From a virus (Duplodnaviria > Heunggongvirae > Uroviricota > Caudoviricetes), in IMG/VR virus record IMGVR_UViG_2939127364_000001: 64,000 nt of DNA; one strand, 5' to 3'. Under the pieces are notes generated by a model. The model was not told the DNA's origin. It did not search any database and saw nothing but the letters and a program-made list of their open reading frames with translations. The translations under genes were made by a program, and so were the position numbers. Below are positions 27,016 through 50,296 of the stretch, piece after piece (the stretch's first letter is position 1; every line of letters starts with the position of its first letter).

Positions 27016-27102
27016 TGGCGGAGAGTAATGGAATCGAACCATCATCGTTTGCACAATGGGACGGATTTCAAGACCGCTTGAGCACCATGCTCCCTACTCT
27101 CC
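27016..27102 (-). tRNA. tRNA-Ser (anticodon UGA), type II with long variable arm
   Basis: Minus strand GGAGAGTAGGGAGCATGGTGCTCAAGCGGTCTTGAAATCCGT...GGTTCGATTCCATTACTCTCCGCCA; anticodon loop CTTGAAA; one mismatch in anticodon stem. Confidence 0.6.
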
Positions 27103-27202
27103 AGCTATTGTGATGGTCGGTGCTGAACTCCGACACAGGGTTGTAGCAAGCCCCGCAAAGCGCGCACTACTGTAGTTGCGGCACATCAGCCTGTGCATTC
27201 AT

Positions 27203-27281
27203 CACAACGGTAAGATCACTACCTTTCGACCAGTCATTGTGCACATGAACGACGATTAACCGTAATGATCTTATCGTTGTG
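27203..27281. repeat. Hairpin element E1 (15-bp arms CACAACGGTAAGATC / GATCTTATCGTTGTG, one mismatch)
   Basis: Arms at 27203-27217 and 27267-27281. Confidence 0.55.
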
Positions 27282-27332
27282 TTGTGAAGCCAGATGCTTA
27301 TCTTCTGGTTGCTTCAAAGAGCTGCACTTCCT

Positions 27333-27421
27333 CACAACGGTAAGAGCACTGGTCTGACTCTATCGATTTACGGGCTTGTGGGTCAGTATCGCCGATTCGC
27401 CCAATGCTCTTACCTGTTGTG
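27333..27421. repeat. Hairpin element E2 (arms CACAACGGTAAGAGC / GCTCTTACCTGTTGTG) abutting tRNA-Thr 3' end
   Basis: Arms at 27333-27347 and 27406-27421; paralogous to E1. Confidence 0.55.
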
Positions 27422-27422
27422 T

Positions 27423-27498
27423 TGGTGCCGGTTAACGGGATCGAACCGCTGACATCCTGCTTACAAGGCAGGCGCTCTACCAACTGAGCTAAACCGGC
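27423..27498 (-). tRNA. tRNA-Thr (anticodon UGU)
   Basis: Minus strand GCCGGTTTAGCTCAGTTGGTAGAGCGCCTGCCTTGTAAGCAGGATGTCAGCGGTTCGATCCCGTTAACCGGCACCA; canonical cloverleaf, encoded CCA. Confidence 0.8.
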
Positions 27499-27502
27499 AA
27501 TT

Positions 27503-27589
27503 TGGTGGGGAGTGATGGAGTCGAACCACCCGAGTCGCAATGACAGTAGATTTACAGTCTACCCCGCTGCCCCTACGGACTAACTCCCC
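27503..27589 (-). tRNA. tRNA-Tyr (anticodon GUA), type II
   Basis: Minus strand GGGGAGTTAGTCC...GGGTAGACTGTAAATCTACTG...GGTTCGACTCCATCACTCCCCACCA; anticodon loop CTGTAAA. Confidence 0.65.
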
Positions 27590-27594
27590 TAAAT

Positions 27595-27669
27595 TGGCGA
27601 TGGTGGGTGGATTCGAACCACCGACCAGTTGGTTAACAGCCAACTGCTCTACCGCTGAGCTACACCATC
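27595..27669 (-). tRNA. tRNA-Asn (anticodon GUU)
   Basis: Minus strand GATGGTGTAGCTCAGCGGTAGAGCAGTTGGCTGTTAACCAACTGGTCGGTGGTTCGAATCCACCCACCATCGCCA. Confidence 0.75.
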
Positions 27670-37920: not shown

Positions 37921-38442
37921 GTGAGCAATACAACGATAGAGATTTTCTCTGGAGAGAAAGATTATGATCTAAACGGTTTTGATTGCGGCGAAGAGTCACT
38001 AAACGCCTTTTTAGCCAACCACTTAAAAAGGCAGCATGAGGGAAAAATTCTTCGTGCTTATGTGCTTTGCACTCAAGAAGAAAGGCCAAAAGTGTTAGGA
38101 TATTACACTTTGTCAGGTAGTTGTTTTGAAAAGGAGTCCTTACCTTCAAGAAGCAAACAAAAGAAGGTTCCTTATCGGAATGTTCCAAGTGTTACTTTGG
38201 GTAGGCTGGCTTTGGACAAGTCCCTTCAAGGTCAAGGATTTGGCTCAATGCTTGTAACACATGCAATGCGCGTTGTGTACAATGCATCTCTTGCTGTAGG
38301 CATTCATGGACTTTTCGTTGAGGCGTTAAATGACAAAGCCAAGGCGTTTTATAAAAGTTTAGACTTTATCCAGCTGGTTGGTAACAACGAGCGTTCTTTG
38401 TTCTATCCTACAAAATCTATCGAAAAATTGTTCGAAGAATAA
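37921..38442 (+). CDS. GNAT acetyltransferase toxin (TacT/AtaT-like)
   Basis: 173 aa, GTG start 8 nt after antitoxin stop; GNAT motif LQGQGFGSMLV; antitoxin-toxin order typical. Confidence 0.7.
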   Translation: MSNTTIEIFSGEKDYDLNGFDCGEESLNAFLANHLKRQHEGKILRAYVLCTQEERPKVLGYYTLSGSCFEKESLPSRSKQKKVPYRNVPSVTLGRLALDKSLQGQGFGSMLVTHAMRVVYNASLAVGIHGLFVEALNDKAKAFYKSLDFIQLVGNNERSLFYPTKSIEKLFEE

Positions 38443-39905: not shown

Positions 39906-39967
39906 GAAAAGTCAAATCGGGATGGCGGTTTTATATCATAAAACGCCCACACTTGGTAGGTAAGTAC

Positions 39968-40756
39968 TTACACATGAGCGCCGTAAATTGCCCCAGCTTT
40001 AGTCCATGTAGGCGCGTTGCCAGTTACGGCTTTACCAGCTGCCCCGCCGCCGTACATTGTCCCCAATCGTCCAGTAGCAGCAGCACCAGCGGCACCTACA
40101 TTACCTCCACTGCCGCATGTGTATTGAACAGCGGTAGAGCCGATCAAATATTGAGCACCAATCCCGGGAGCGGTTAGAGTGCCAGAAGTTGCCGCACGCG
40201 AAGTTGAAGCTGGCGGCCTTGTAGTGTTTGCAACACCAAACGGGCGACCGCCACCACCCATACCACCATCGGCTGAGTTACCGCCGCCACCACCGCCACC
40301 ACCGGCAATAGCGCCGTTATTGGTTATTCTTAAACGAGTCCCAATCCCGTTGTTAATAGCAGTGCCACCGGCAGCACCGCCACCTTTAACGCCACCATTA
40401 CCGCCACGGCCATAGACAGTTACACCTGCGTTGATTACAAGGCTGATATAAGAGTTGGTAAGTGAACTCGGGAAATCTAAACATGGCACGCCGCTACTGG
40501 ACGACACCAGATCCCCTGTAATGGTAACAACGACTGGCGTCGCCCCCTGGGATTTTAAATAGTTGATCAGTGTGTCTTTGTTGTAGTTATGATTCGCACC
40601 GATGCTGTACTGAACTTCTTTAGATCGCCCGGCCATTTGAGACATTGAACCAGCCGCTGGCAGTTGCACCGCCGTTCGAGCCGCACTCATCCATCTCTGG
40701 CCTGTCACACTGACAGCCGAAGACCCAATCCAACCGGGAACACCGACAATTGGCAC
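39968..40756 (-). CDS. gp38-like tail fiber adhesin with glycine-rich motifs
   Basis: GTG start at 40756 preceded by AAAGGAG; N-terminus PIVGVPGWIGSSAVSVTGQRWMS and GRSKEV...TGDLVSSS...GRGGNGG...NNGAIAGGGGGGGG resemble recalled T2-type gp38; directly downstream of long tail fiber. Confidence 0.6.
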   Translation of the reverse strand: MPIVGVPGWIGSSAVSVTGQRWMSAARTAVQLPAAGSMSQMAGRSKEVQYSIGANHNYNKDTLINYLKSQGATPVVVTITGDLVSSSSGVPCLDFPSSLTNSYISLVINAGVTVYGRGGNGGVKGGGAAGGTAINNGIGTRLRITNNGAIAGGGGGGGGNSADGGMGGGGRPFGVANTTRPPASTSRAATSGTLTAPGIGAQYLIGSTAVQYTCGSGGNVGAAGAAATGRLGTMYGGGAAGKAVTGNAPTWTKAGAIYGAHV

Positions 40757-40822
40757 ATCTAATCTCCTTTTTGATGTGAATATCCTGAATTGGTGAGGGT
40801 GGCCCCTCACCATTCACCTTGA

Positions 40823-43800
40823 TTACATTTTTGCCTTCAGTTCGCGCACTTCCTCGCGCAGCTCTTTGACAGCCTCGACCAACATGCCGATAACGCCGTT
40901 GTAGTTAAGACGCAGACGAGGCTCTCCTGACTGATCGTTATGGTCAACCGTTACCAGTTCAGGCTGAACATTCTGGACGTCCTGAGCGATGAGGCCGCCA
41001 GACTGCTCATAACGGCCACAGACCTGAATCTCGTAGAGAACACCTTCGATCTGCTCCAGCTTGTCGAGCGCCCGCTCAATTTTGCGAATATTGCGCTTAC
41101 TACGGCGGTCGGAACGGATGTAAACGTCGTTAAAGCTACCATTCCCACCACAAACCCAAGTGCCGTCATTTTGCAAATAAGCATTAGCATCAGTGCCATT
41201 ATCAGTACGTGAGTTGTTTATCATGTAAAAGCCGAATTGGCTGTTACCTAAACCACCAACAAAAAATTTCCTATCAGCATGGTCTTGTCTTAACAATGCC
41301 TGAGCAGAACTAGTTGATACCTGATTAAGACCAAAAATAACGTTTTGATCTCGCATGCTAATCCAAGAACCTGAGTTGCTGTTAATAGAAAACCTGTTTG
41401 CATATACCCAGGAATTGGTTTTTATATCTCCAGTAACGTTGACAGGCTTATTGCTTTGAACACTCCCACTCGTAAAGCGTAAAACTTGGGTGTTATTGGC
41501 GTAAACATCAAGAATGCCATCTCCATTTTGTTTTAATCCGGTATCGCTATCACCCAGAACAATTGAGTTCCCACCAAGACCATTGACCACACCCAGCCCA
41601 AGACCACCGTCAACAACAGCACCATTGCCCATTGCTACTCTGCCATTAGTGAGATTTACATAAAATGGACGAAGCGAACCTATATCACCATTTTCTCCCT
41701 GGTCTTTTGCTGTCGGGATAAGGTAAAAATTATTTTCGGAACGGCGAAAAATCATCCCGTATGCCGCATCGTAAATGCGCAACCCATCCGTAGAGCGGAT
41801 CTTAAGCTGTCCGGACATCGTACCGCCGCTGTTTTTCATAAATAGCGCATCAATCCAGCCTGCAAATCCCGACTTATTAATGTATAAATTTCCATCATTT
41901 GCCAGAATGCCTCCACCTTGCGTCTTGAGGGGCTGACTCACATTTTGCAGCGTCAGCACACCAGTCATTGTTCCGCCAGAAATCGGTAACGCACCGACAT
42001 CAGCCGCTGTGGGTTTATGAGCAGTGGTATAGACCTGCGCCCAACCAGACCAATTCGCTGTCGAAGTATCACGGCGTGAACGAACATAAACCGGTGCATG
42101 AGCACCATTCGTTCCGCTCCAGCCAATAAGCAACTCGCCCTCACCAGCAGCACTCGCACCTTTCATGTGCAATACGTTGCCATACGTGGTCGGGTAGCTA
42201 TTGTTGTACGCCTCATACATTTGAATGCCAGCAGTGCCTTGAGTAGAGCCACTTAACGCCGTTACGGGCCCGCGTGATACCAATGTATTAATGTTGATAT
42301 CGCCTGAGCCATCAAACTTAACACCATTGATGTTTCTAGCAGTTTGCAACTTCGTAGCTGTTGAAGCATTACCGTTCAAGCTACCATTGATGCCGCCAGT
42401 AACATTGAGTCCATTACCAATGGACACAGCACCGCTGGTATTATTAATTGTAATCGGTCGCAAACCGTTCCATGAACCTAATGTGTCTCCTGATGCTGTT
42501 AGCATGAAATATGTGTTCGACCCATCATTACGGATAAAGAACCCAAAGCTACCGTAAGCAATGCGGAAACCATTTGCATATTTTGAAATGATCTCGCCAG
42601 AAGATGTCAAACCTCCAGATAATGTCCCACCGGTAAGAGGTAATGCACCAACGTCAGATGCTGTTGGTTTATTTTTCGTGTTATATACTCTTCGCCATCC
42701 TGGAGAATAATCTGTGCCATTAAATACATAGATAAACTCCGCATTAGTGAGAGCACCAGAGACACTCGTCGTTGTGGCCGTTGTTATACGGATCGTATAA
42801 TTGTTTGAGCTACTACCGTTATTAAATACCTCTATAACAGCTCCTGCCAATGGAATAACGCCACAACCAGTTTCACTATTTGGTATGGTTGCACTATTGG
42901 CATAGGCCCACGCACATCGAGCAATCCATGACCTTGTGGTAAACGCGCCGTTATTTTGCAATAACGTCACTAACTGTGCTGTTGTTATTGCTCCGCCATT
43001 ACTTCCTGTAGTTAACCAACCAGTAGGAGATGCCGGGCAACCTATATCGGCAGGCCCCAACGATATATTTCTTGTGCCATCAAACGCAATACCGTTGATG
43101 GTTCTTGCGGTTTGCAACTTCGTAGCAGTAGCCGCGTTGCCCGTTGTATTCTGATTACCAGTCGTATTAACACCTGGCAAATTAATATTCGCAGTACCAT
43201 CAAAGCTCACGCCGCCGATAGTTCTTGCCGTCTGAAGTTTTGTAGCAGTTGCAGCATTACCAGTGGTGTTCTGATTACCCGTAGTATTTACACCTGGAAG
43301 GTTGATATTTGCAGAACCGTCGAAACCAACTCCACCGATAGATCTTGCCGTCTGCAATTTCGTTGCTGTACTTGCATTACCATTTAATGTTCCGGTGATC
43401 CCACCAGTAACAGACAACGGACCTGAAACTGTTCCTCCGGTTGTTGGCAGTGCTCCAATATCTAACGGCGTCGGTTTCTGATGTGTGCTATACATCGTAT
43501 AAACAACACCATCGGTAACGCTGGAAGGCTTACTCGCTGAATATGTTGGCGATGTATAAATAGAAACTGTCGCATTTGCAGTACAATCCCAATGGATATT
43601 TACACGAGTCGCATAATTGCCAATCTCAACGTAAATATCATATGTATCGCCGGATGTGTTGATCCAGGCGAAATTCGTTAATCCGACAGCTGTACGCTTC
43701 CACAAAGCACCTGTAATCCCTTTGGGGTTTCCATTGCCTGCTCGTAGAACCAGTTCTGAAATACCTGCCTGATGTGGGGAGCCAACGTTAAACCCTGCGC

Positions 43801-45469
43801 CACCAATCAGGCTTATGTAAACCACGGAACTGGCTTGTGGCATGGTTACAGTTGCCAGCTTGAACCATCCGGCACCACCACTAAAAGACATTGTTATTGA
43901 ATTTAAAGTACCAATATCTTTCGGCGTTAATGTGATATCCGCAGTCAGTGCTTTACCGTTAACTTTTCGGTTAGATGGTACCCTGCCATTCGCATTGTCA
44001 TTGGCTGCTTTAACTGCCTTCGGTGTCGCGGCAAGCGTTTCAGATGTGCTGTTGGTTGCACTACTGAGCTGGACTATCCCCTTTTTCGTCGTGCTCGCAT
44101 CCTCAAGCGCCACGGCGGATGCAATATCCTCTGCCCGTTTTGCCGCTGTCTCAGCGCGCGTTGCTGCGGATTCTGCCGTACTTTTGCTCTGTGCTGCCGC
44201 CGTCGCACTGCCAGCAGCCTCTGTTGCCTTCGTGGATGCCGTCGTGGCGCTGCCCTTCGCTGCTGACGCCTGTCTGGTCGCCTCATCTTTTGAAGCAGAC
44301 GCAGATGATGCCGATGACGCTGCCGAACTGGCGGACGATGCCGCTGCCGTTTTTGAGGATTCTGCACGGGTTTCCGACGCTTTCGCGTTCGTTTCGGATG
44401 TCTTCGCTGCGGAAGCTGACCTCGCTGCTGCGCTGGCCTGTTCAGTGGCTTGGCCAGCCTTCGTTGTGGCTGTTGAAGCAGACGATGCGGCACTTTCTGC
44501 CGATTTTCCGGCGGCGGTGGCACTGGCTGAGGCCTGCCCGGCACTTGTTGACGCGGCACTGGCAGACGACGCAGCCGCTGTTTTTGAGCCTGCCGCAGCC
44601 GAGGCGCTCTGTCCCGCTGCCGTTTCAGAAGACCTGGCGTTCGTCTCGGACGTTTTTGCCGCCTTCGCGGAATTTCCTGCCGCCGTTGCCGAGGAAGCGG
44701 CATTACTGGCGCTCGAGGCTGCGCTCGTTTCTGATGATTTCGCTGCCTCTTTTGAGGCCGCCGCATCCCGGGCTGAGGTGGCAGCTTCTGACGCCTTCGT
44801 GGTCGCGGTGGATGCAGAAGTGGCTGCAGATTTTTGTGACGCTGCAGCATTCGTTTCAGATTTTTTCGCAGCAGTTGCACTCGCACTTGCGGCACTTTGT
44901 GAGGATGCCGCAGCGGATGCACTTTGAGACGCTTGAGAGGCTTTTTCTCCAGCAGTATTGGCGCTTTCTGCTGCTGCGGCAGCACTGGCCGCCGCCTCAC
45001 GAGCTTTGTCGCCAGCAGCATCAATCGCGTCAGTGTTATTTTTATACCACTCAACGTTTTCGTTGTGCTCGTTGACGATCTGCATTAGCGGCTTAACGGT
45101 CACTTCTGTACCGTCTTCACGCTCGATTGTCACCTCATCCAGCGCAGTCAACCAACTGCGTATGGACTTGGAATCAGCCGACATACGCGACATTAGCGCA
45201 GTAAAGCGCGCGCTAAACTGTGTTAAGTCGCCTTCATAGGTCGTAATGATTCGGCACGGAACCTCAGACTGAGTTTCGCCGGTATAAGGTTCTGAGAGAA
45301 CAATATTCGTATCGCTTATTACGCGCTTGATCTCGTACAGCTTATTGTCGGGGCCAATGACGATCATCCCCGGCAACACACCATTAGCTGTTACGTTCCA
45401 GGCTGTCCCTGCCCCAACCAGAGTATTGCTACCCTGTGTAAATGTGATAGTACCTTCCCTGTACCACAT
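40823..45469 (-). CDS. Long side tail fiber protein
   Basis: 1548 aa; Ala/Ser/Thr-rich low-complexity region, tandem tail-fibre repeats (ATATKLQTARTIGGVSFDG), C-terminal SDRRSKRNI segment resembling S74 intramolecular chaperone domain. Confidence 0.85.
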   Translation of the reverse strand: MWYREGTITFTQGSNTLVGAGTAWNVTANGVLPGMIVIGPDNKLYEIKRVISDTNIVLSEPYTGETQSEVPCRIITTYEGDLTQFSARFTALMSRMSADSKSIRSWLTALDEVTIEREDGTEVTVKPLMQIVNEHNENVEWYKNNTDAIDAAGDKAREAAASAAAAAESANTAGEKASQASQSASAAASSQSAASASATAAKKSETNAAASQKSAATSASTATTKASEAATSARDAAASKEAAKSSETSAASSASNAASSATAAGNSAKAAKTSETNARSSETAAGQSASAAAGSKTAAASSASAASTSAGQASASATAAGKSAESAASSASTATTKAGQATEQASAAARSASAAKTSETNAKASETRAESSKTAAASSASSAASSASSASASKDEATRQASAAKGSATTASTKATEAAGSATAAAQSKSTAESAATRAETAAKRAEDIASAVALEDASTTKKGIVQLSSATNSTSETLAATPKAVKAANDNANGRVPSNRKVNGKALTADITLTPKDIGTLNSITMSFSGGAGWFKLATVTMPQASSVVYISLIGGAGFNVGSPHQAGISELVLRAGNGNPKGITGALWKRTAVGLTNFAWINTSGDTYDIYVEIGNYATRVNIHWDCTANATVSIYTSPTYSASKPSSVTDGVVYTMYSTHQKPTPLDIGALPTTGGTVSGPLSVTGGITGTLNGNASTATKLQTARSIGGVGFDGSANINLPGVNTTGNQNTTGNAATATKLQTARTIGGVSFDGTANINLPGVNTTGNQNTTGNAATATKLQTARTINGIAFDGTRNISLGPADIGCPASPTGWLTTGSNGGAITTAQLVTLLQNNGAFTTRSWIARCAWAYANSATIPNSETGCGVIPLAGAVIEVFNNGSSSNNYTIRITTATTTSVSGALTNAEFIYVFNGTDYSPGWRRVYNTKNKPTASDVGALPLTGGTLSGGLTSSGEIISKYANGFRIAYGSFGFFIRNDGSNTYFMLTASGDTLGSWNGLRPITINNTSGAVSIGNGLNVTGGINGSLNGNASTATKLQTARNINGVKFDGSGDININTLVSRGPVTALSGSTQGTAGIQMYEAYNNSYPTTYGNVLHMKGASAAGEGELLIGWSGTNGAHAPVYVRSRRDTSTANWSGWAQVYTTAHKPTAADVGALPISGGTMTGVLTLQNVSQPLKTQGGGILANDGNLYINKSGFAGWIDALFMKNSGGTMSGQLKIRSTDGLRIYDAAYGMIFRRSENNFYLIPTAKDQGENGDIGSLRPFYVNLTNGRVAMGNGAVVDGGLGLGVVNGLGGNSIVLGDSDTGLKQNGDGILDVYANNTQVLRFTSGSVQSNKPVNVTGDIKTNSWVYANRFSINSNSGSWISMRDQNVIFGLNQVSTSSAQALLRQDHADRKFFVGGLGNSQFGFYMINNSRTDNGTDANAYLQNDGTWVCGGNGSFNDVYIRSDRRSKRNIRKIERALDKLEQIEGVLYEIQVCGRYEQSGGLIAQDVQNVQPELVTVDHNDQSGEPRLRLNYNGVIGMLVEAVKELREEVRELKAKM

Positions 45470-45562: not shown

Positions 45563-48500
45563 TCACAGACGGCCAATTCTTACTCGTAAGACGTTGTTAT
45601 CGTCATAAACGTCAATCCGCTGACCATTTATAACCAATCGCCCATTGCCGCCGCTATTACCGTTGATCTCAAGCGTTCCATTTTTGCCGAACCGCCATCC
45701 AGATCTACCGCTAACAAAATTGGTAGATTGCAGATCGCCTACTTTTGCATTGGTGATTGTGCCATCCTTGATATACGCTCCATTCATATAGGCGATACTG
45801 TTTTCGATAACAAATGGCGTTGTGATCTTCCCGTTAACAGAGTTGACCAAACCAAACCTGTCCGCCTGAACCAAAAACTGAGATAGCCCAGTGGTGTCAA
45901 TACCAAGCGCAATACCGGCAACATACTTCTGACCTCCGCTCGTTGAAGTCTCCATTTTCAACGTCCACGCGGTTGACACTTTTTTGTTGGTATCAGCAAT
46001 AGCTGTTGCCTGCTGTTGAATTGTCGCGGTATTTCCATCCACCTCTGCTTTCAGAGTATCGATTCGCCCACTCAGAGCATTATCTGCCTGCGTTCTCGCT
46101 GTCGTTTCAGTTGTTACCGCCGCGGAAATGTTGGCTGCCGTTTGAGACTCTAAGTTTGTGATTTGAGTCGCCAATGCAGCATCTTGGTCTGTACGCGTTT
46201 TCGTTTCGGTTGCTACAGCCGCTTTAATATCCTCTTTGTATTGAGAGGTCAGCTTGGTGATCTGAGACGACAACGCCGAGTCAGCATCAGTTCGAGCCTG
46301 CGTTTCAACTGCAACGGCCGCACTAATATCTTTCGCTGTCTGTGCTTTTAAATTTGAAACCTCTTTTGTTAAAGCGGTATCACCATCTGCACGAGCCGTT
46401 GTTTCTCTGGCAAGAGACGCCTCGAGATCATTAGCTTTTGCTGTAAGAGACGTAATCTGGGTAGACAATGCACTATCGGCATCAGTCCTTGCTTTTGTCT
46501 CTACAGCAACCGCTGCGGCAATATCAGTTCCGGTTTGTGCTCGCAGGCTGTTAATTTCTCGTGAGAGCGCCTGGTCAGCACTTGCTCTGGCCTCCTGCTC
46601 CTGAGTGATGGCAGCGGATATATCACCGTCAACCTTTGACTGAAGCTGGTTTATTTGTTTGGCTAACGCAGAGTCCCCGCTTGCTCGGGCCTCCTGCTCA
46701 CTACGTATTGCAGCAGAAATATCATCATCAACCTTTGCCTGAAGTTGGGTGATCTGGCTTGCCAGAGCCGAATCTTCCGTTGCTCGGGCTTCTTGCTCTT
46801 CCTTAATAGCTGCGACGATATCGTTGCTTACTTTCGACTCAAGCTGAGTGATCTGTGTCGTCAGAGCTTCATCGGCAGATGTACGAGCCTCCTGCTCTGT
46901 ACTAATCGCCGCGCTGATATCTCCTTCAAACTTAGATTGCAGCTGAGTGACACGCTTTGCCAACGCTTCATCGCCATCGGCACGAGCGGTGGACTCTTCC
47001 AGAATACTGGCCTTAATGTCTTCGCCAATTTCTACGCGAATTTCCTCAACCTTCGTGGCCATTGCAGACATATCATCAGCAAAGGTTTTCTGTGTTGTTG
47101 CGATCTTCGCGTTATTGACCATCTGCTTGTGCTGGTCTTCATCTTGACGAAGAGCCAGGTCAATATTTGTTTTGGCTAACGCCTCAATGTTCGTAGTCAG
47201 TTCTGCACTTGCACGATCGACCTCTGCAACCGTCTTTTTCATTTCTTCAACGGCAGCGGAGCTTTCCTCTACCGTTGACTGCAACACTTCCAGTTGTTTA
47301 GCGTTTGCAGCATCGCCTTCAACACGAGCCTCGCTTTCCTTAGCAATAAGAGCCGCCGCTTCATCTCTTGCAGCCTTTATTGCCTCGACTGTATTAGCGA
47401 GAGCTTTATCGTGTTCAGATACGGTGTTTTCGATTTCAACAATTGCAGCATCAGTAGCATCAATTTTTTCAAACGCTTCATTGACCTTGTCGATCGTTGC
47501 CGAAACCTCACCTTTAAGCTCGGTTTGTGCGTTCTCCAAAGCATCGCTACGCTCGTTGAATTTTATTTCAAAATCCGCGAGGTTATCGCTGAACTGCTTA
47601 TCTAATTCAGCTATATCTTCCTTAACGTCGTTTACCGCCCCCTCCAAAGATTCGACGCTCTGGTTGATATGCTCATTTAACTCGTCAACTGCTTCTTGAG
47701 AGGCTTTGCTGTTGATGTCCTCAAGCAGAGCCTGACCAAGCTCGGAAGATGTAATTTTGCCAGTCAGGAACGACAGTACATCGCGAGTTGTCGCCTCTGT
47801 ACCCAAGTTTGAGTTCGGAGGACTTAACATACCTCGCTTGTTCGATGCTCGAACCCAGTAATACCACGTTTCACTATCCCCAAGACCAGCATGTGTAAAG
47901 GTGGTGCTTGCAGACTCTGCGATCAGTTTCGCCGTATCCAGATTGTTGGTCTGGGATGCGTAAACATTAATGTGATCAAGGTCTACCGAATCTGGATTAA
48001 CCCAATTCAGTATCACATTACGATAGTCTCCAACGGCCGTTAATGACGTTGGTGCATCCGGCGGTGTCATTGTGCCCAGCACCTGATAAACGGTACTGAT
48101 AATTTCTGTTTTTTTACCGTTGAATGAAACCGCATACAGTTGGAAGTCGTAGCGTCCATTCTCCGCGACATTAACAATTTCGTATTGCTCTTCGGTTACA
48201 CGCGCCGATTGCCAGTTCGATATATTGTTTTCATCAGAACGTCGCCAACTGATCCAATACTCTGGAGATTTCCCTTCCCATGTTGCAGTCAGTTTTACTG
48301 ACAGGTTGCCAGGGCTTGAGAGATAAGTCCCTTCGGTGATTTGCAAATTAGACGGCTTGGAGTAAGTCGGGTCCAATACCGTCGTATTCTGCGGGATAAG
48401 CGTTGCACCATTGTCGATCGCCTCATATTTAGACGGATTGTTCTCAACAGCGGTGATGTCAAAGCTACCCGGCGTTTCCCCCTGCGCGATGTTAACGATG

Positions 48501-50296
48501 CGAACGCGCATAGGTTCGAGATCTGGTTCTGTAATTGTCCAGACACCGTTCAAAACAGGCGTTTCCGCTGACGACAGGGCTTTTGAAAACGTAACTTTTG
48601 TTATATTTTCGCCAGTTTCAAGAACATCGCGTTCAACGATTTTGCCTTCCTGATTCAGTATTCGAATAAAGCAGCCGCCTTTGGCTAACGACACAGGCGC
48701 ATCGAGTGTGACGCTGTTTTTGGTAAACGCCACAATTCGACCTGAGTTACGTTTGCCTGCGCGATATTTGTTCTGAATCAGAACGGTTTCACCAGGCATC
48801 AGAAATGACGCGTCTAAGCCAGCAGTAAATGTAATTACATCCGACTCCATTCTGGCGGTATATAAAAGCCACAAACCAACTCGGTGAGCCTGCCCTCGGC
48901 TTGTACAGCCAAATGCTACGACTTCTGTTTTACGCTCACCATAACGGCGCATTGCGTCCTGATCTTCGACGTACTCGATGTTTTGCTTATAACCGTCCTC
49001 CTTGTTGTTGTAGGTTACGAGCGCAACGGATGGGCGATCTTTACGCGCAGAACCTTTATAGGTAAACAATCCATCTTTGACGTTAGAGTTGGTAAACATC
49101 ATTACCGGATCTGATGGGCTATCCTGCATGATGTTGACCATCCCACCAGCCCAAAACACCATGCCGCGGAATGCTCCGGCAATATCCTGAATTAGCCGGT
49201 ATGCGTCCTGTCGACTGGTGATCTGCGTATTGATTGCAAAGCGTTTCTCTTTGCCACCAAAGCCATCATCGACCTCTTCGTCACAATATCGACCAATCTG
49301 GTACAACTGGCCAAGGTCAATCATAGATTCCGACACATACTGACCAAGGCCATATCGAGCATTGGTCAGCAAATCAAAGAGAATCCACGCGGGGTTCGAA
49401 GAAGACAACAGCTTAAAAGTGCCATCCCATACCCCAGCGTAAGTGTTACTGGACTCGTTATAGTTTGAAGGTACTCGAATTTTTAGGCCACGCACCAGAT
49501 AAGAGCGAGATGGCATGGTGCTGCCGAATTGCTCAGAGTTTACCTTCAATCCAACCAAAACAGAGTTTGGATAGTTCATCGGTGTATCGACAATTTCCCC
49601 GATTGAATCCACCCATGTATCGTTATAGAGATACTGGCTACTGTTATCATCGGTAATACGGACCACACGAACCTTGTATGCGCGTCCAGGCTTAGGCAGC
49701 TTCAGCTCGTAGCTACGGTAATAAACGCCGGTCTTCTTTGCTGTTAGCTTAATGCCAACGCTTTTTTCACCTTCCGCGACCACATCTACAAATGTTGAGT
49801 CGCCATTTGCTATCTGGAACTTGTACTCAACAGTCGTACCGTTCGTGTCACCAGTTTTTTTATCTATGCTTCGCAAAGAAGGAAACTTCATGATGACACG
49901 AACCCGATCAGCTTCATCGTTATCGATTGAAACCGTTACATAATGTGTTTTTTTTAACTGGATATTGACGGATTTAGGCGTTTCAACGAAATCAAAGCCA
50001 GACATTGGAGTCTGGTCTTGTGAACCGTCGCGAAAATCCCATGTGATTCCGCTGAAGTTGGAGGAACCGTCTTCATTTACAATCGGCAGATCGTCGATAA
50101 AAATAGATCTTGCGCCATTTACTAAGCCGCCAATTACCCCTTCCCCAAGAAGATCGAGGATAGCGGCCATTGCACGAGAATTTACGGTATCGTCGGCTTC
50201 AACCGGTGTACGGCTGGAGCTTTTGCTGCTTTTTTTACCACCCGCACCGGCAATAAACAGCGGTAGCTTTTTCTTCTTGAACTGTTCCATGTTCAA
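45563..50296 (-). CDS. Tail tip central fiber protein (lambda J-like)
   Basis: 1577 aa; N-terminal two-thirds alignable by eye to lambda J (e.g. YAGVWDGTFK, FGCTSRGQAHRVGLWLL); C-terminal part replaced by repeat-rich coiled coil. Confidence 0.85.
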   Translation of the reverse strand: MNMEQFKKKKLPLFIAGAGGKKSSKSSSRTPVEADDTVNSRAMAAILDLLGEGVIGGLVNGARSIFIDDLPIVNEDGSSNFSGITWDFRDGSQDQTPMSGFDFVETPKSVNIQLKKTHYVTVSIDNDEADRVRVIMKFPSLRSIDKKTGDTNGTTVEYKFQIANGDSTFVDVVAEGEKSVGIKLTAKKTGVYYRSYELKLPKPGRAYKVRVVRITDDNSSQYLYNDTWVDSIGEIVDTPMNYPNSVLVGLKVNSEQFGSTMPSRSYLVRGLKIRVPSNYNESSNTYAGVWDGTFKLLSSSNPAWILFDLLTNARYGLGQYVSESMIDLGQLYQIGRYCDEEVDDGFGGKEKRFAINTQITSRQDAYRLIQDIAGAFRGMVFWAGGMVNIMQDSPSDPVMMFTNSNVKDGLFTYKGSARKDRPSVALVTYNNKEDGYKQNIEYVEDQDAMRRYGERKTEVVAFGCTSRGQAHRVGLWLLYTARMESDVITFTAGLDASFLMPGETVLIQNKYRAGKRNSGRIVAFTKNSVTLDAPVSLAKGGCFIRILNQEGKIVERDVLETGENITKVTFSKALSSAETPVLNGVWTITEPDLEPMRVRIVNIAQGETPGSFDITAVENNPSKYEAIDNGATLIPQNTTVLDPTYSKPSNLQITEGTYLSSPGNLSVKLTATWEGKSPEYWISWRRSDENNISNWQSARVTEEQYEIVNVAENGRYDFQLYAVSFNGKKTEIISTVYQVLGTMTPPDAPTSLTAVGDYRNVILNWVNPDSVDLDHINVYASQTNNLDTAKLIAESASTTFTHAGLGDSETWYYWVRASNKRGMLSPPNSNLGTEATTRDVLSFLTGKITSSELGQALLEDINSKASQEAVDELNEHINQSVESLEGAVNDVKEDIAELDKQFSDNLADFEIKFNERSDALENAQTELKGEVSATIDKVNEAFEKIDATDAAIVEIENTVSEHDKALANTVEAIKAARDEAAALIAKESEARVEGDAANAKQLEVLQSTVEESSAAVEEMKKTVAEVDRASAELTTNIEALAKTNIDLALRQDEDQHKQMVNNAKIATTQKTFADDMSAMATKVEEIRVEIGEDIKASILEESTARADGDEALAKRVTQLQSKFEGDISAAISTEQEARTSADEALTTQITQLESKVSNDIVAAIKEEQEARATEDSALASQITQLQAKVDDDISAAIRSEQEARASGDSALAKQINQLQSKVDGDISAAITQEQEARASADQALSREINSLRAQTGTDIAAAVAVETKARTDADSALSTQITSLTAKANDLEASLARETTARADGDTALTKEVSNLKAQTAKDISAAVAVETQARTDADSALSSQITKLTSQYKEDIKAAVATETKTRTDQDAALATQITNLESQTAANISAAVTTETTARTQADNALSGRIDTLKAEVDGNTATIQQQATAIADTNKKVSTAWTLKMETSTSGGQKYVAGIALGIDTTGLSQFLVQADRFGLVNSVNGKITTPFVIENSIAYMNGAYIKDGTITNAKVGDLQSTNFVSGRSGWRFGKNGTLEINGNSGGNGRLVINGQRIDVYDDNNVLRVRIGRL
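46040..47030 (-). repeat. Tandem 99-bp (33-aa) coding repeats, ~9-10 units, inside J-like gene
   Basis: Repeated unit DISAAI-EQEARAS-D-ALA-QI-QLQSKV; DNA periodicity visible in 46040-47030. Confidence 0.7.

What the first reader, a model, noticed from the sequence alone, without database searches (positions are those of the whole stretch)
39968..40756. T-even-type gp38-like adhesin with glycine-rich motifs on a lambda-like siphovirus tail
Directly downstream of the long side tail fiber is a protein whose N-terminus resembles the fiber-attachment domain of T2-type gp38 and whose C-terminus carries poly-Gly motifs separated by variable segments, the layout of the receptor-recognising adhesin. 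It appears to start at GTG with a strong RBS, so ATG-based gene finders would miss or mis-start it. A myovirus-type adhesin on a phage-plasmid fiber implies modular host-range exchange.
Basis: partly seen in the sequence, partly recalled or inferred. Interest (0 to 1): 0.65.

Follow-up and report, generated by a model that had tools for sequence, protein, structure and literature searches.

The report
gp38-type fibre-tip adhesin on phage-plasmid
This gene encodes a well-conserved member of the T2/T6/S16 "gp38" receptor-binding adhesin family, sitting at the end of the side tail fibre gene of an SSU5-like phage-plasmid of E. coli. It is real and intact but already labelled in public records, so the only modest news is that this "T-even" adhesin is common on temperate siphoviruses and shares specificity cassettes with them.

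Summary
Minus-strand ORF 39968-40756 (262 aa, GTG start, AAGGAG 7 nt upstream) matches Pfam GP38 (E=7e-70) and Gp38_N (E=1e-14). It matches the solved S16 and PP01 gp38 structures by sequence and by predicted fold. Conserved glycine blocks alternate with variable segments.

The GTG start is supported:
- It aligns with Met1 of 36 homologues.
- RefSeq uses it in all 10 relatives read that share the MPIVG/MSISN N-terminus.
- The upstream ATG (40813) is absent or out of frame in four relatives and lies inside a hairpin.

The host element is an SSU5-like phage-plasmid with a lambda-type tail tip (M-L-K-I-J). Its mosaic side fibre ends in a self-cleaving S74 chaperone domain.

The gene is not new to databases. 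86 PLSDB plasmids and 36 E. coli genomes carry it, annotated "receptor-recognizing protein". SSU5 itself has a Gp38_N adhesin with a different C-terminal domain.

Modular exchange is supported. Phage-plasmids carry at least five specificity alleles, with recombination breakpoints inside the gene. Their C-terminal cassettes are 82-93% identical to T-even gp38, against about 65% for the N-terminal part.

The receptor is unknown. This is a new member of a known kind, of modest interest.

The parts
39968..40756 (-). CDS of the gp38-type receptor-recognising adhesin (262 aa, GTG start, TAA stop)
   Evidence: ORF list and sequence. Pfam GP38 plus Gp38_N. PHROG 2056. PDB 6F45_D at E=3.2e-43 and 9V85 at E=1.2e-32. 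AlphaFold model with pLDDT 90.4 hits only gp38 structures. dN/dS is 0.04-0.14 against phage-plasmid alleles.
40631..40756 (-). Gp38_N fibre-attachment domain (aa 1-42), predicted as three short helices
   Evidence: PF21721 at E=9.9e-15, aligned from residue 1. Helices at 10-18, 23-29 and 38-41 in the model. W9 and W22 are conserved in 36 of 37 homologues. The third docking position is Ser37 here, whereas W occupies it in 24 of 37.
39971..40411 (-). Glycine-rich specificity domain (aa 116-262): conserved glycine-rich blocks alternating with hypervariable segments
   Evidence: Alignment A1 and per-segment conservation. Aligned to the S16 polyglycine-sandwich region, including the GGGGGGGG run at aa 151-158 (PMC6851490 read).
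40052..40234 (-). HVS3-GRM4-HVS4 region (aa 175-235), the most allele-specific part; 'type A' allele
   Evidence: It differs among phage-plasmid alleles. The closest phage matches for aa 175-262 are Enterobacter T4-type phages EnA02 and CC31, at 75-77% aa identity.
40764..40769 (-). Shine-Dalgarno AAGGAG, 7 nt upstream of the GTG
   Evidence: Read from the sequence. Identical in 9 of the 11 relatives read; L011 and L013 have different leaders.
40786..40816 (-). GC-rich hairpin between the fibre stop and the adhesin RBS. It contains the upstream in-frame ATG (40813-40811) in its 5' arm and is not followed by a T-run
   Evidence: RNA fold gives -27.7 kcal/mol, z=-2.9. The terminator scan does not call it.
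40823..45469 (-). Mosaic side tail fibre (1548 aa), the partner to which the adhesin should dock
   Evidence: Gp34_trimer and Peptidase_S74 domains. Its C-terminus resembles S16 gp37 (6F45_A, E=1.2e-18) and Mu gpS 340-445 (5YVQ, E=1.2e-40). The last ~260 aa are close to the SSU5 fibre. Nucleotides 525-1478 are 90-93% identical to lambdoid side tail fibre genes.
40826..41113 (-). C-terminal intramolecular chaperone of the fibre (S74 domain begins at Ser1453; inferred self-cleavage ...VYIR|SDRRSK)
   Evidence: PF13884 at aa 1453-1507, E=5e-11. Aligned to the SDRRIKKDIK region of S16 gp37. The cleavage site itself is an inference from the family.
39946..39960 (-). Weak terminator-like hairpin just after the adhesin stop codon
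   Evidence: Consensus scan only.
45563..50296 (-). Lambda gpJ-like tail tip protein immediately upstream of the fibre (context)
   Evidence: Pfam FNIII-A_GpJ, Phage-tail_3 and Phage_Tail_Tip. The neighbouring genes match lambda L, M and K (JAB plus NlpC/P60).

Best explanation
The gene encodes a monomeric gp38-family adhesin that caps the distal end of the phage-plasmid's trimeric side tail fibre and determines which cell-surface receptor the virion first binds.

Proposed mechanism:
1. The 1548-aa fibre trimerises with the help of its own C-terminal S74 intramolecular chaperone. The chaperone then cuts itself off, inferred at R1452|S1453.
2. The three-helix Gp38_N domain (aa 1-42) docks onto the exposed trimer tip, one adhesin per three fibre chains.
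3. The central beta-helix carries a polyglycine (PGII) sandwich built from the conserved glycine blocks.
4. The hypervariable loops between those blocks contact the receptor, most likely an outer-membrane beta-barrel protein.

Translation starts at GTG 40756. Host range in this phage-plasmid lineage is diversified by recombination that swaps the C-terminal cassette. These cassettes are drawn from the same pool as those of virulent T-even phages.

Shown here: family membership, domain layout, predicted fold, start codon by comparative evidence, purifying selection, allele mosaicism, and a partner fibre with an S74 domain.
Inferred: virion location, 1:3 stoichiometry, the cleavage site, and the receptor class.
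For: Family and fold:
- Pfam GP38 at E=6.6e-70 and Gp38_N at E=9.9e-15, both well above their cut-offs. PHROG 2056 matches full length.
- The protein aligns over aa 8-260 with S16 gp38 of the solved gp37-gp38 tip complex (6F45_D, E=3.2e-43) and with the PP01 gp38 receptor-binding domain (9V85).
- The AlphaFold model (pLDDT 90.4, pTM 0.82) gives significant Foldseek hits only to 6F45_D and 9V85. TM-score normalised to the query is 0.71, and to the target 0.75 (6F45_D) and 0.84 (9V85_C).
- Glycine blocks are conserved (0.80-0.95) and the segments between them are variable (0.43-0.57).

Partner fibre:
- It lies directly upstream, carries Peptidase_S74, and has an S16-gp37-like C-terminus.

Start codon:
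- The GTG aligns with Met1 of all 36 aligned homologues.
- RefSeq uses it in the 10 relatives read with this N-terminus.
- The upstream ATG is missing or out of frame in L003, L006, L011 and L013.

Function and exchange:
- dN/dS is 0.04-0.14.
- Phage-plasmids carry at least five C-terminal allele types. All four combinations of two N-terminal and two C-terminal types occur.
- The window is identical to L008 for the first 300 nt and then diverges.
- C-terminal domains are 82% (window against a T-even contig) and 93% (relative L009 against phage JSE) identical to T-even gp38. The N-terminal parts are only 65-68% identical.
Against: No experimental data exist for this protein or any SSU5-like homologue in the literature searched.

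One of the three tryptophans that dock S16 gp38 into gp37 pockets (PMC6851490) is Ser37 here.

The fibre tip is only about 27% identical to a T-even gp37, so the docking geometry is not demonstrated.

The receptor cannot be inferred. The nearest characterised-family relatives of the HVS region (CC31, EnA02) are only 75-77% identical, and I found no receptor assignment for them.

SSU5, with a different adhesin C-terminal domain, is reported to use LPS core (Kim et al. 2014, seen here only as a reference title). A non-protein receptor therefore cannot be excluded for the lineage.
Confidence: 0.88

Rival explanations
1. The protein is only an assembly chaperone for the fibre, like T4 gp38 or lambda Tfa. 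It is not retained in the virion, and the fibre's own C-terminus binds the receptor.
For: It occupies the gene position that tail fibre assembly proteins hold in lambda, Mu and P2. Part of the fibre (aa 1356-1462) resembles Mu gpS, whose tip is chaperone-assisted.
Against: A Pfam scan at E<=1 returned only GP38 and Gp38_N, and no tail-assembly-chaperone family. Full-length homology and predicted fold match the virion-borne adhesins of S16 and PP01. The fibre carries its own S74 folding chaperone. The alternation of hypervariable loops and a conserved scaffold is the signature of a receptor-contacting surface.
Confidence: 0.05
2. Translation begins at the upstream ATG (40813), giving a 281-aa protein with a 19-residue N-terminal extension.
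For: The ATG is in frame with no intervening stop. One public protein cluster (P0009, 280 aa, 40 members) is annotated this way.
Against: The ATG has no Shine-Dalgarno sequence and lies in the 5' arm of a stable hairpin. The extension is lost in relatives: a 1-nt deletion in L003, ATG changed to ATT in L006, an in-frame stop at -10 codons in L011, and at -7 in L013. All homologues, T-even ones included, begin at the position of the GTG. Gp38_N aligns from residue 1. An N-terminal extension would sit on the fibre-docking face.
Confidence: 0.04
3. The gene is a decaying remnant of a past recombination with a T-even phage and no longer functions in this element.
For: The third docking tryptophan is replaced. 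Some relatives carry truncated or IS-interrupted copies (H8; partial proteins).
Against: The ORF is full length and intact, retaining all family-invariant residues. dN/dS is 0.04-0.14. The gene is conserved in 86 plasmids of five genera at the same position, with its RBS. The Ser/Asn variant at position 37 is shared by a whole clade under purifying selection.
Confidence: 0.03

Closest known systems
gp38 adhesins of T2/T6/S16/PP01-type Straboviridae (Pfam PF05268 plus PF21721; structures 6F45, 9V85)
   Same: Same two Pfam domains and about the same length (262 aa against 249-262). Same three-part layout of attachment helices, beta-helix and polyglycine sandwich. Same GRM/HVS alternation, including the G8 run at 151-158. 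Encoded directly after a fibre gene that ends in an S74 chaperone domain. Overall identity is 41-44% to the solved structures and up to 59% to T-even proteins; the C-terminal cassette is 82% identical to one T-even contig.
   Different: It sits on a temperate, plasmid-borne siphovirus with a lambda-type tail tip rather than on a contractile-tailed virulent phage. The partner fibre is a mosaic side fibre only about 27% identical to a gp37 tip. It starts at GTG. The third docking Trp is Ser. The receptor is unknown.
SSU5_022 'tail fiber adhesin' of Salmonella phage SSU5 (prototype of the phage-plasmid group)
   Same: Same genomic slot after a fibre whose last ~260 aa are closely similar to the window's. 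Same Gp38_N domain (E=2.5e-20), with 58% identity over 38 aa.
   Different: SSU5_022 is 178 aa and has no GP38/GRM domain. SSU5 also has three extra genes, including cor, between the adhesin and the holin; the window lacks them.
T4 gp38 / lambda Tfa tail fibre assembly chaperones
   Same: Same position downstream of the fibre gene, and the same historical gene name.
   Different: No sequence-family match. Those proteins are folding helpers. The T2-type gp38 is described as unrelated to T4 gp38 (PMC3157838; PMC6851490).

Membership tests
gp38 receptor-recognising adhesin (T2/T6/S16 type) | N-terminal fibre-attachment domain (Gp38_N, PF21721) | tested here: met
   aa 1-42, E=9.9e-15, 54.7 bits against a cut-off of 25.
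gp38 receptor-recognising adhesin (T2/T6/S16 type) | GP38 domain (PF05268) above the gathering score, covering the profile end to end | tested here: met
   aa 47-261 on profile positions 1-217 of 218, 235.8 bits against a cut-off of 25.
gp38 receptor-recognising adhesin (T2/T6/S16 type) | Conserved glycine-rich motifs separated by hypervariable segments in the C-terminal domain (Trojet 2011, PMC3157838) | tested here: met
   Glycine blocks score 0.80-0.95 conserved and the intervening segments 0.43-0.57, over 37 sequences. Phage-plasmid alleles differ mainly in those segments.
gp38 receptor-recognising adhesin (T2/T6/S16 type) | Three-domain fold with a polyglycine sandwich | tested here: met
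   This rests on a predicted model only (pLDDT 90.4). Foldseek hits with E<=0.001 are exclusively 6F45_D and 9V85. PGII geometry was not measured.
gp38 receptor-recognising adhesin (T2/T6/S16 type) | Three conserved tryptophans at the apices of the attachment helices that fill three pockets on the fibre tip (S16 structure, PMC6851490) | tested here: inconclusive
   W9 and W22 are present. The third position is Ser37. Across 37 homologues this column holds W 24, Y 5, F 1, N 4, S 2, G 1, so it is not invariant even in T-even members.
gp38 receptor-recognising adhesin (T2/T6/S16 type) | Encoded next to a trimeric fibre gene whose C-terminus is a self-cleaving S74 chaperone | tested here: met
   The fibre gene (40823-45469) ends 66 nt upstream of the GTG start. 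Peptidase_S74 covers aa 1453-1507, with similarity to the S16 gp37 C-terminus.
gp38 receptor-recognising adhesin (T2/T6/S16 type) | Present in the virion at the fibre tip as one copy per fibre trimer, and binds an outer-membrane receptor | not testable with these tools
   Needs virion proteomics or cryo-EM, and adsorption assays.
T4 gp38 / lambda Tfa assembly chaperones | Sequence membership in a tail-fibre-assembly family | tested here: not met
   A Pfam scan at E<=1 returned only GP38 and Gp38_N.
SSU5-like phage-plasmids (host element) | Synteny and nucleotide similarity to SSU5 and to ~105-120 kb non-mobilizable plasmids of Enterobacteriaceae carrying head, tail, lysis, partition and replication genes | tested here: met
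   The 1.5-kb region has 237 PLSDB matches, and 231 of them are non-mobilizable; the records inspected are mostly typed IncFIB. Gene order matches pCPF6, pYLMB53a and SSU5. The gp38 gene is 99.9% nt-identical to those of CP073940 and CP074008.
Lambda-type siphovirus tail tip | M-L-K-I-J gene block followed by a side tail fibre gene | tested here: met
   Phage_min_tail, Phage_tail_L, JAB plus NlpC/P60, and FNIII-A_GpJ / Phage_Tail_Tip. The I-like gene has no Pfam hit, but RefSeq calls it 'tail assembly protein'. The fibre shaft is 90-93% nt-identical to lambdoid stf genes.

The most novel reading that the evidence does not exclude
Temperate phage-plasmids and integrated siphoviral prophages share one circulating pool of gp38 specificity cassettes with virulent T-even phages. 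Exchange would occur by recombination at or near the conserved glycine motifs. Lysogens would then act as reservoirs from which an infecting T-even phage, or conversely the resident phage-plasmid, can acquire a new receptor specificity. On this reading the window's allele is an 'Enterobacter-type' cassette. It is closest to CC31/EnA02, and 95-97% identical copies sit in Enterobacter, Citrobacter and Salmonella plasmids. It may therefore give this E. coli phage-plasmid a cross-genus adsorption range.
Probability: 0.45. Interest if true: 0.55.

Novelty: new member of a known kind. Interest (0 to 1): 0.35.

Why it matters
Recent literature treats gp38 as a hallmark receptor-binding protein of Straboviridae (abstract of PMC12032242 as listed; bioRxiv 10.64898/2026.04.02.716166). 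The paper searches run here found no paper that discusses it on phage-plasmids.

Three consequences follow from showing that a whole lineage of temperate, plasmid-borne siphoviruses uses the same adhesin, with cassettes up to 93% identical to T-even ones. Some members of that lineage carry antibiotic-resistance genes (PMC9600943, abstract).
1. Receptor-prediction rules learned on T-even gp38 may transfer to phage-plasmids.
2. The host range of resistance-spreading phage-plasmids could be read from one small gene.
3. Lysogens may supply host-range modules to therapeutic T-even phages.

None of this changes the understanding of how gp38 works.

Tried and rejected
- NCBIfam gave no hit for the adhesin or the fibre, so that library does not explain where RefSeq's product name comes from.
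- The promoter scan found no sigma-70-like site between the fibre and the adhesin. I treat the two genes as co-transcribed.
- The intergenic hairpin is not followed by a T-run and was not called as a terminator. Its role is unresolved, so I did not build on it.
- I considered that the window's cassette was recently acquired from a T-even phage. The best T-even contig (L019) is only about 70% nt-identical, so a recent transfer is rejected for this allele. It remains plausible for the 'type B' allele of relatives, but only protein identity (93%) was available there.
- I first took 'no chromosomal copies in 5,426 E. coli genomes' to mean the gene is exclusive to plasmids. Searches show more divergent gp38 genes in prophages on 391-kb and 433-kb contigs. 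The statement therefore holds only for close (>~68% nt) relatives.
- Receptor inference from similarity was abandoned, because no characterised gp38 is close in the HVS region.
- Plus-strand ORFs 40179-40415 (poly-Pro) and 39953-40177 are mirror images of the Gly-rich frame and were dismissed.

Full report
**What is at the coordinates.** The finding corresponds to a minus-strand ORF, 39968-40756, of 262 codons. It begins with GTG (40756-40754) and ends with TAA. AAGGAG lies at 40769-40764, 7 nt upstream of the GTG. The same reading frame is open back to an ATG at 40813, giving a 281-aa ORF. The gene starts 66 nt after the stop codon (40825-40823) of a 1548-aa fibre gene (40823-45469). It is followed by the lysis genes.

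**Family assignment.**
- Pfam gives GP38 (PF05268) at E=6.6e-70, covering aa 47-261 on profile positions 1-217 of 218.
- Pfam also gives Gp38_N (PF21721) at E=9.9e-15 over aa 1-42. Nothing else appears at E<=1.
- PHROG 2056 'tail fiber protein; host specificity' matches end to end at E=6e-86.
- Against the PDB, the protein aligns over aa 8-260 with gp38 of the solved S16 gp37-gp38 tip complex (6F45_D, E=3.2e-43). It also aligns with the PP01 gp38 receptor-binding domain (9V85, E=1.2e-32).
- An AlphaFold model built on 37 homologues has mean pLDDT 90.4 and pTM 0.82.
- Its only significant Foldseek matches in the PDB are those same two gp38 structures. TM-score normalised to the query is 0.71; normalised to the target it is 0.75 for 6F45_D and 0.84 for 9V85_C.

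**GRM/HVS layout.** In an alignment of 37 homologues, five glycine-rich blocks are highly conserved, with a mean top-residue frequency of 0.80-0.95:
- GRGGNGG at aa 116-122.
- aa 129-158, ending in an eight-glycine run at 151-158.
- MGGGGRPFG.
- GSGGNVGAAG.
- The GGGAAGKAV...IYG tail.

The four segments between these blocks are variable (0.43-0.57). Glycine is 31% of aa 111-262 and 9% of aa 1-110. This matches the layout described for T-even gp38 in PMC3157838. In the S16 structure that layout folds into a polyglycine sandwich whose distal loops are the proposed receptor-binding site (PMC6851490).

**Start codon.** The GTG is strongly supported.
- All 36 aligned homologues, including T-even proteins that start M-A-I-V-G-V-P-G-W-I-G, begin at the position of this codon. 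The window reads (M)-P-I-V-G-V-P-G-W-I-G.
- Gp38_N aligns from residue 1.
- RefSeq annotates the same GTG in the 10 relatives read that share this N-terminus.
- The upstream ATG is not conserved. L003 has a 1-nt deletion that removes it from the frame. L006 has ATT in its place. L011 has an in-frame stop 10 codons upstream, and L013 has one 7 codons upstream.
- The ATG has no Shine-Dalgarno sequence. It lies in the 5' arm of a stable hairpin at 40786-40816 (-27.7 kcal/mol, z=-2.9).

One public cluster (P0009, 280 aa, 40 members) is nevertheless annotated from that ATG. An out-of-frame ATG overlaps the GTG by two bases (40758-40756) and would give a 17-codon ORF. It reads GGTGTG in L012, so it is not conserved.

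**The gene is functional.** dN/dS against seven phage-plasmid alleles is 0.07-0.14 for codons 2-158. Against two same-type alleles it is 0.04-0.09 for codons 159-262.

**The host element.**
- The 1.5-kb region matches 237 PLSDB plasmids of Escherichia, Enterobacter, Citrobacter, Shigella and Salmonella, and 231 of them are non-mobilizable. It also matches phages SSU5 and CMS-2020a, and Cyrano over only 39 nt of flank.
- The window shares gene content and order with pCPF6, pYLMB53a and SSU5. The shared genes are DNA polymerase III alpha, ligase, primase, a DnaB-like helicase, a ParA-like ATPase, tacA/GNAT toxin-antitoxin, lysis genes, adhesin, fibre, J-I-K-L-M, tape measure, head genes and portal.
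- The tail tip block is lambda-type by Pfam: Phage_min_tail, Phage_tail_L, JAB plus NlpC/P60, and FNIII-A_GpJ / Phage_Tail_Tip.

The element is therefore an SSU5-like phage-plasmid with a lambda-type tail tip.

**The fibre is a mosaic.**
- Nucleotides 525-1478 of the gene (the Ala/Ser-rich shaft) are 90-93% identical to side tail fibre genes of lambdoid phages. The first 3.1 kb are 93.5% identical to phage Cyrano.
- aa 1356-1462 resemble Mu gpS residues 340-445 (5YVQ, E=1.2e-40).
- The C-terminus resembles S16 gp37, including the S74 intramolecular chaperone (PF13884, aa 1453-1507).
- Self-cleavage at ...VYIR|SDRRSK is an inference from the family.
- The last ~260 residues are close to the SSU5 fibre. 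The distal 400 residues are only about 27% identical to a T-even gp37.

**The adhesin architecture is native to the lineage.** SSU5 encodes a 178-aa 'tail fiber adhesin' in the same slot. It has a Gp38_N domain (E=2.5e-20; 58% identical over 38 aa) but no GP38/GRM domain. The docking system of fibre tip plus Gp38_N is thus shared across the group, and the receptor-binding module behind it is exchangeable. SSU5 also carries three genes, including cor, between the adhesin and the holin. The window lacks them.

**Distribution.**
- tblastn finds the protein in 86 PLSDB plasmids: Enterobacter 40, Escherichia 29, Citrobacter 13, Salmonella 3, Shigella 1. Of these, 83 are non-mobilizable, and 39 of the 40 rows listed are annotated 'receptor-recognizing protein'.
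- blastn finds the gene in 36 of 5,426 complete E. coli genomes, always on plasmids.
- In the phage collection it hits 757 records. All 40 rows sampled across that ranking are 158-180 kb T-even-type genomes, apart from the SSU5-like CMS-2020a.
- More divergent copies (about 52-57% identical) sit in siphovirus-like prophages on 391-kb and 433-kb contigs of E. coli and Enterobacter kobei assemblies. There they lie after a fibre gene with the same Gp34_trimer plus S74 domains.
- One of those prophage fibres is about 85% nt-identical over 2.7 kb to Krischvirus RB49 gp37.

**Modular exchange.**
- Phage-plasmid alleles share the first ~125 residues and the glycine blocks. They fall into at least five types in the variable segments.
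- Two N-terminal variants and two C-terminal types occur in all four combinations.
- The window is identical to L008 over the first 300 nt and then diverges sharply. Against L004 the divergence is confined to nt 61-180 and the 3' end.
- The window's C-terminal domain is 82% identical to a gp38 on a genuine T-even contig (context gp59, rnh, gp34-37, holin t, asiA, motA), but its N-terminal part is only 65% identical.
- The 'type B' C-terminal domain of relative L009 is 93% identical to gp38 of phage JSE, against 67% for the N-terminal part.
- The window's HVS3-4 region is closest to Enterobacter T4-type phages EnA02 and CC31, at 75-77%. That fits with 95-97% identical copies of this allele in Enterobacter, Citrobacter and Salmonella plasmids.
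- At the nucleotide level the T-even relative is only about 70% identical, so this particular transfer is not recent.

**One difference from the solved complex.** S16 gp38 docks through three conserved tryptophans, one per helix (PMC6851490). The window has W9 and W22, but Ser37 at the third position. That column holds W in 24 of 37 homologues, Y or F in 6, and N, S or G in 7. SSU5_022, which docks on a near-identical fibre tip, keeps the tryptophan. The consequence for docking is unknown.

**Comparison with what is known, and novelty.** The protein is a clear member of the T2/T6/S16 gp38 adhesin family and most probably works like one. Near-identical sequences are already annotated in RefSeq. 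The paper searches found nothing that links gp38 to SSU5-like phage-plasmids, and recent work describes gp38 as a Straboviridae protein. I rate it a new member of a known kind, in an under-appreciated host lineage, with modest interest. The receptor remains unknown.

Noticed in passing
window 27016-27669 (minus strand): tRNA cluster of Ser(tga), Thr(tgt), Tyr(gta) and Asn(gtt). The 87-nt tRNA-Tyr scores only 39.7 bits in Rfam. It lies between Thr and Asn, which are directly adjacent in relative pCPF6, where only Ser, Thr and Asn are annotated. It looks like an extra tRNA insertion in this element.
   Followed up: partly
window 40786-40816 (minus strand): Stable GC-rich hairpin (-27.7 kcal/mol, z=-2.9) between the fibre stop and the adhesin RBS, with no T-run. 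It is kept with one mismatch in the divergent relative L006. It could attenuate read-through or stabilise the mRNA, tuning the adhesin:fibre ratio.
   Followed up: partly
window 40756-40758 (minus strand): An out-of-frame ATG overlaps the GTG start by two bases and shares its RBS, which would give a 17-codon ORF. It is present in most relatives but reads GGTGTG in L012.
   Followed up: partly
window 37605-38442 (plus strand): A TacA-like antitoxin (DUF1778) plus GNAT acetyltransferase toxin pair lies between the ParA-like partition gene (36660-37325) and the lysis genes. It is conserved in relatives.
   Followed up: no
L015:6714-10810 and L018:5763-10777: gp38 GRM adhesins also occur in siphovirus-like prophages on 433-kb and 391-kb contigs of Enterobacter kobei and E. 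coli assemblies. There the fibre and adhesin genes sit between the head and tail genes. The L018 fibre is about 85% nt-identical over 2.7 kb to gp37 of Krischvirus RB49, which suggests fairly recent transfer between a virulent myovirus and a temperate siphovirus.
   Followed up: partly
L019:10001-11723 and L020:4677-6038: Tandem adhesins. A T-even metagenomic contig carries two consecutive gp38 genes with different HVS sets. Another contig, whose fibre 3' region is 93% nt-identical to the window's over 293 nt, carries a GRM-type gp38 followed by a 170-aa Gp38_N-only adhesin. This suggests alternative fibre caps in one phage.
   Followed up: partly
window 43097-43382 and 46581-46798: Imperfect tandem repeats of 120 nt (2.4 copies, inside the fibre gene, coding the repeated ...GNASTATKLQTAR..FDG.. 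units) and of 99 nt (2.2 copies, inside the J-like gene).
   Followed up: no
L002:4277-5384 (SSU5) compared with window 39906-39967: SSU5 has three genes between the adhesin and the holin (outer membrane protein, membrane-associated protein, Cor superinfection exclusion). The window and its close relatives lack them, with the adhesin followed directly by the holin-like gene.
   Followed up: no
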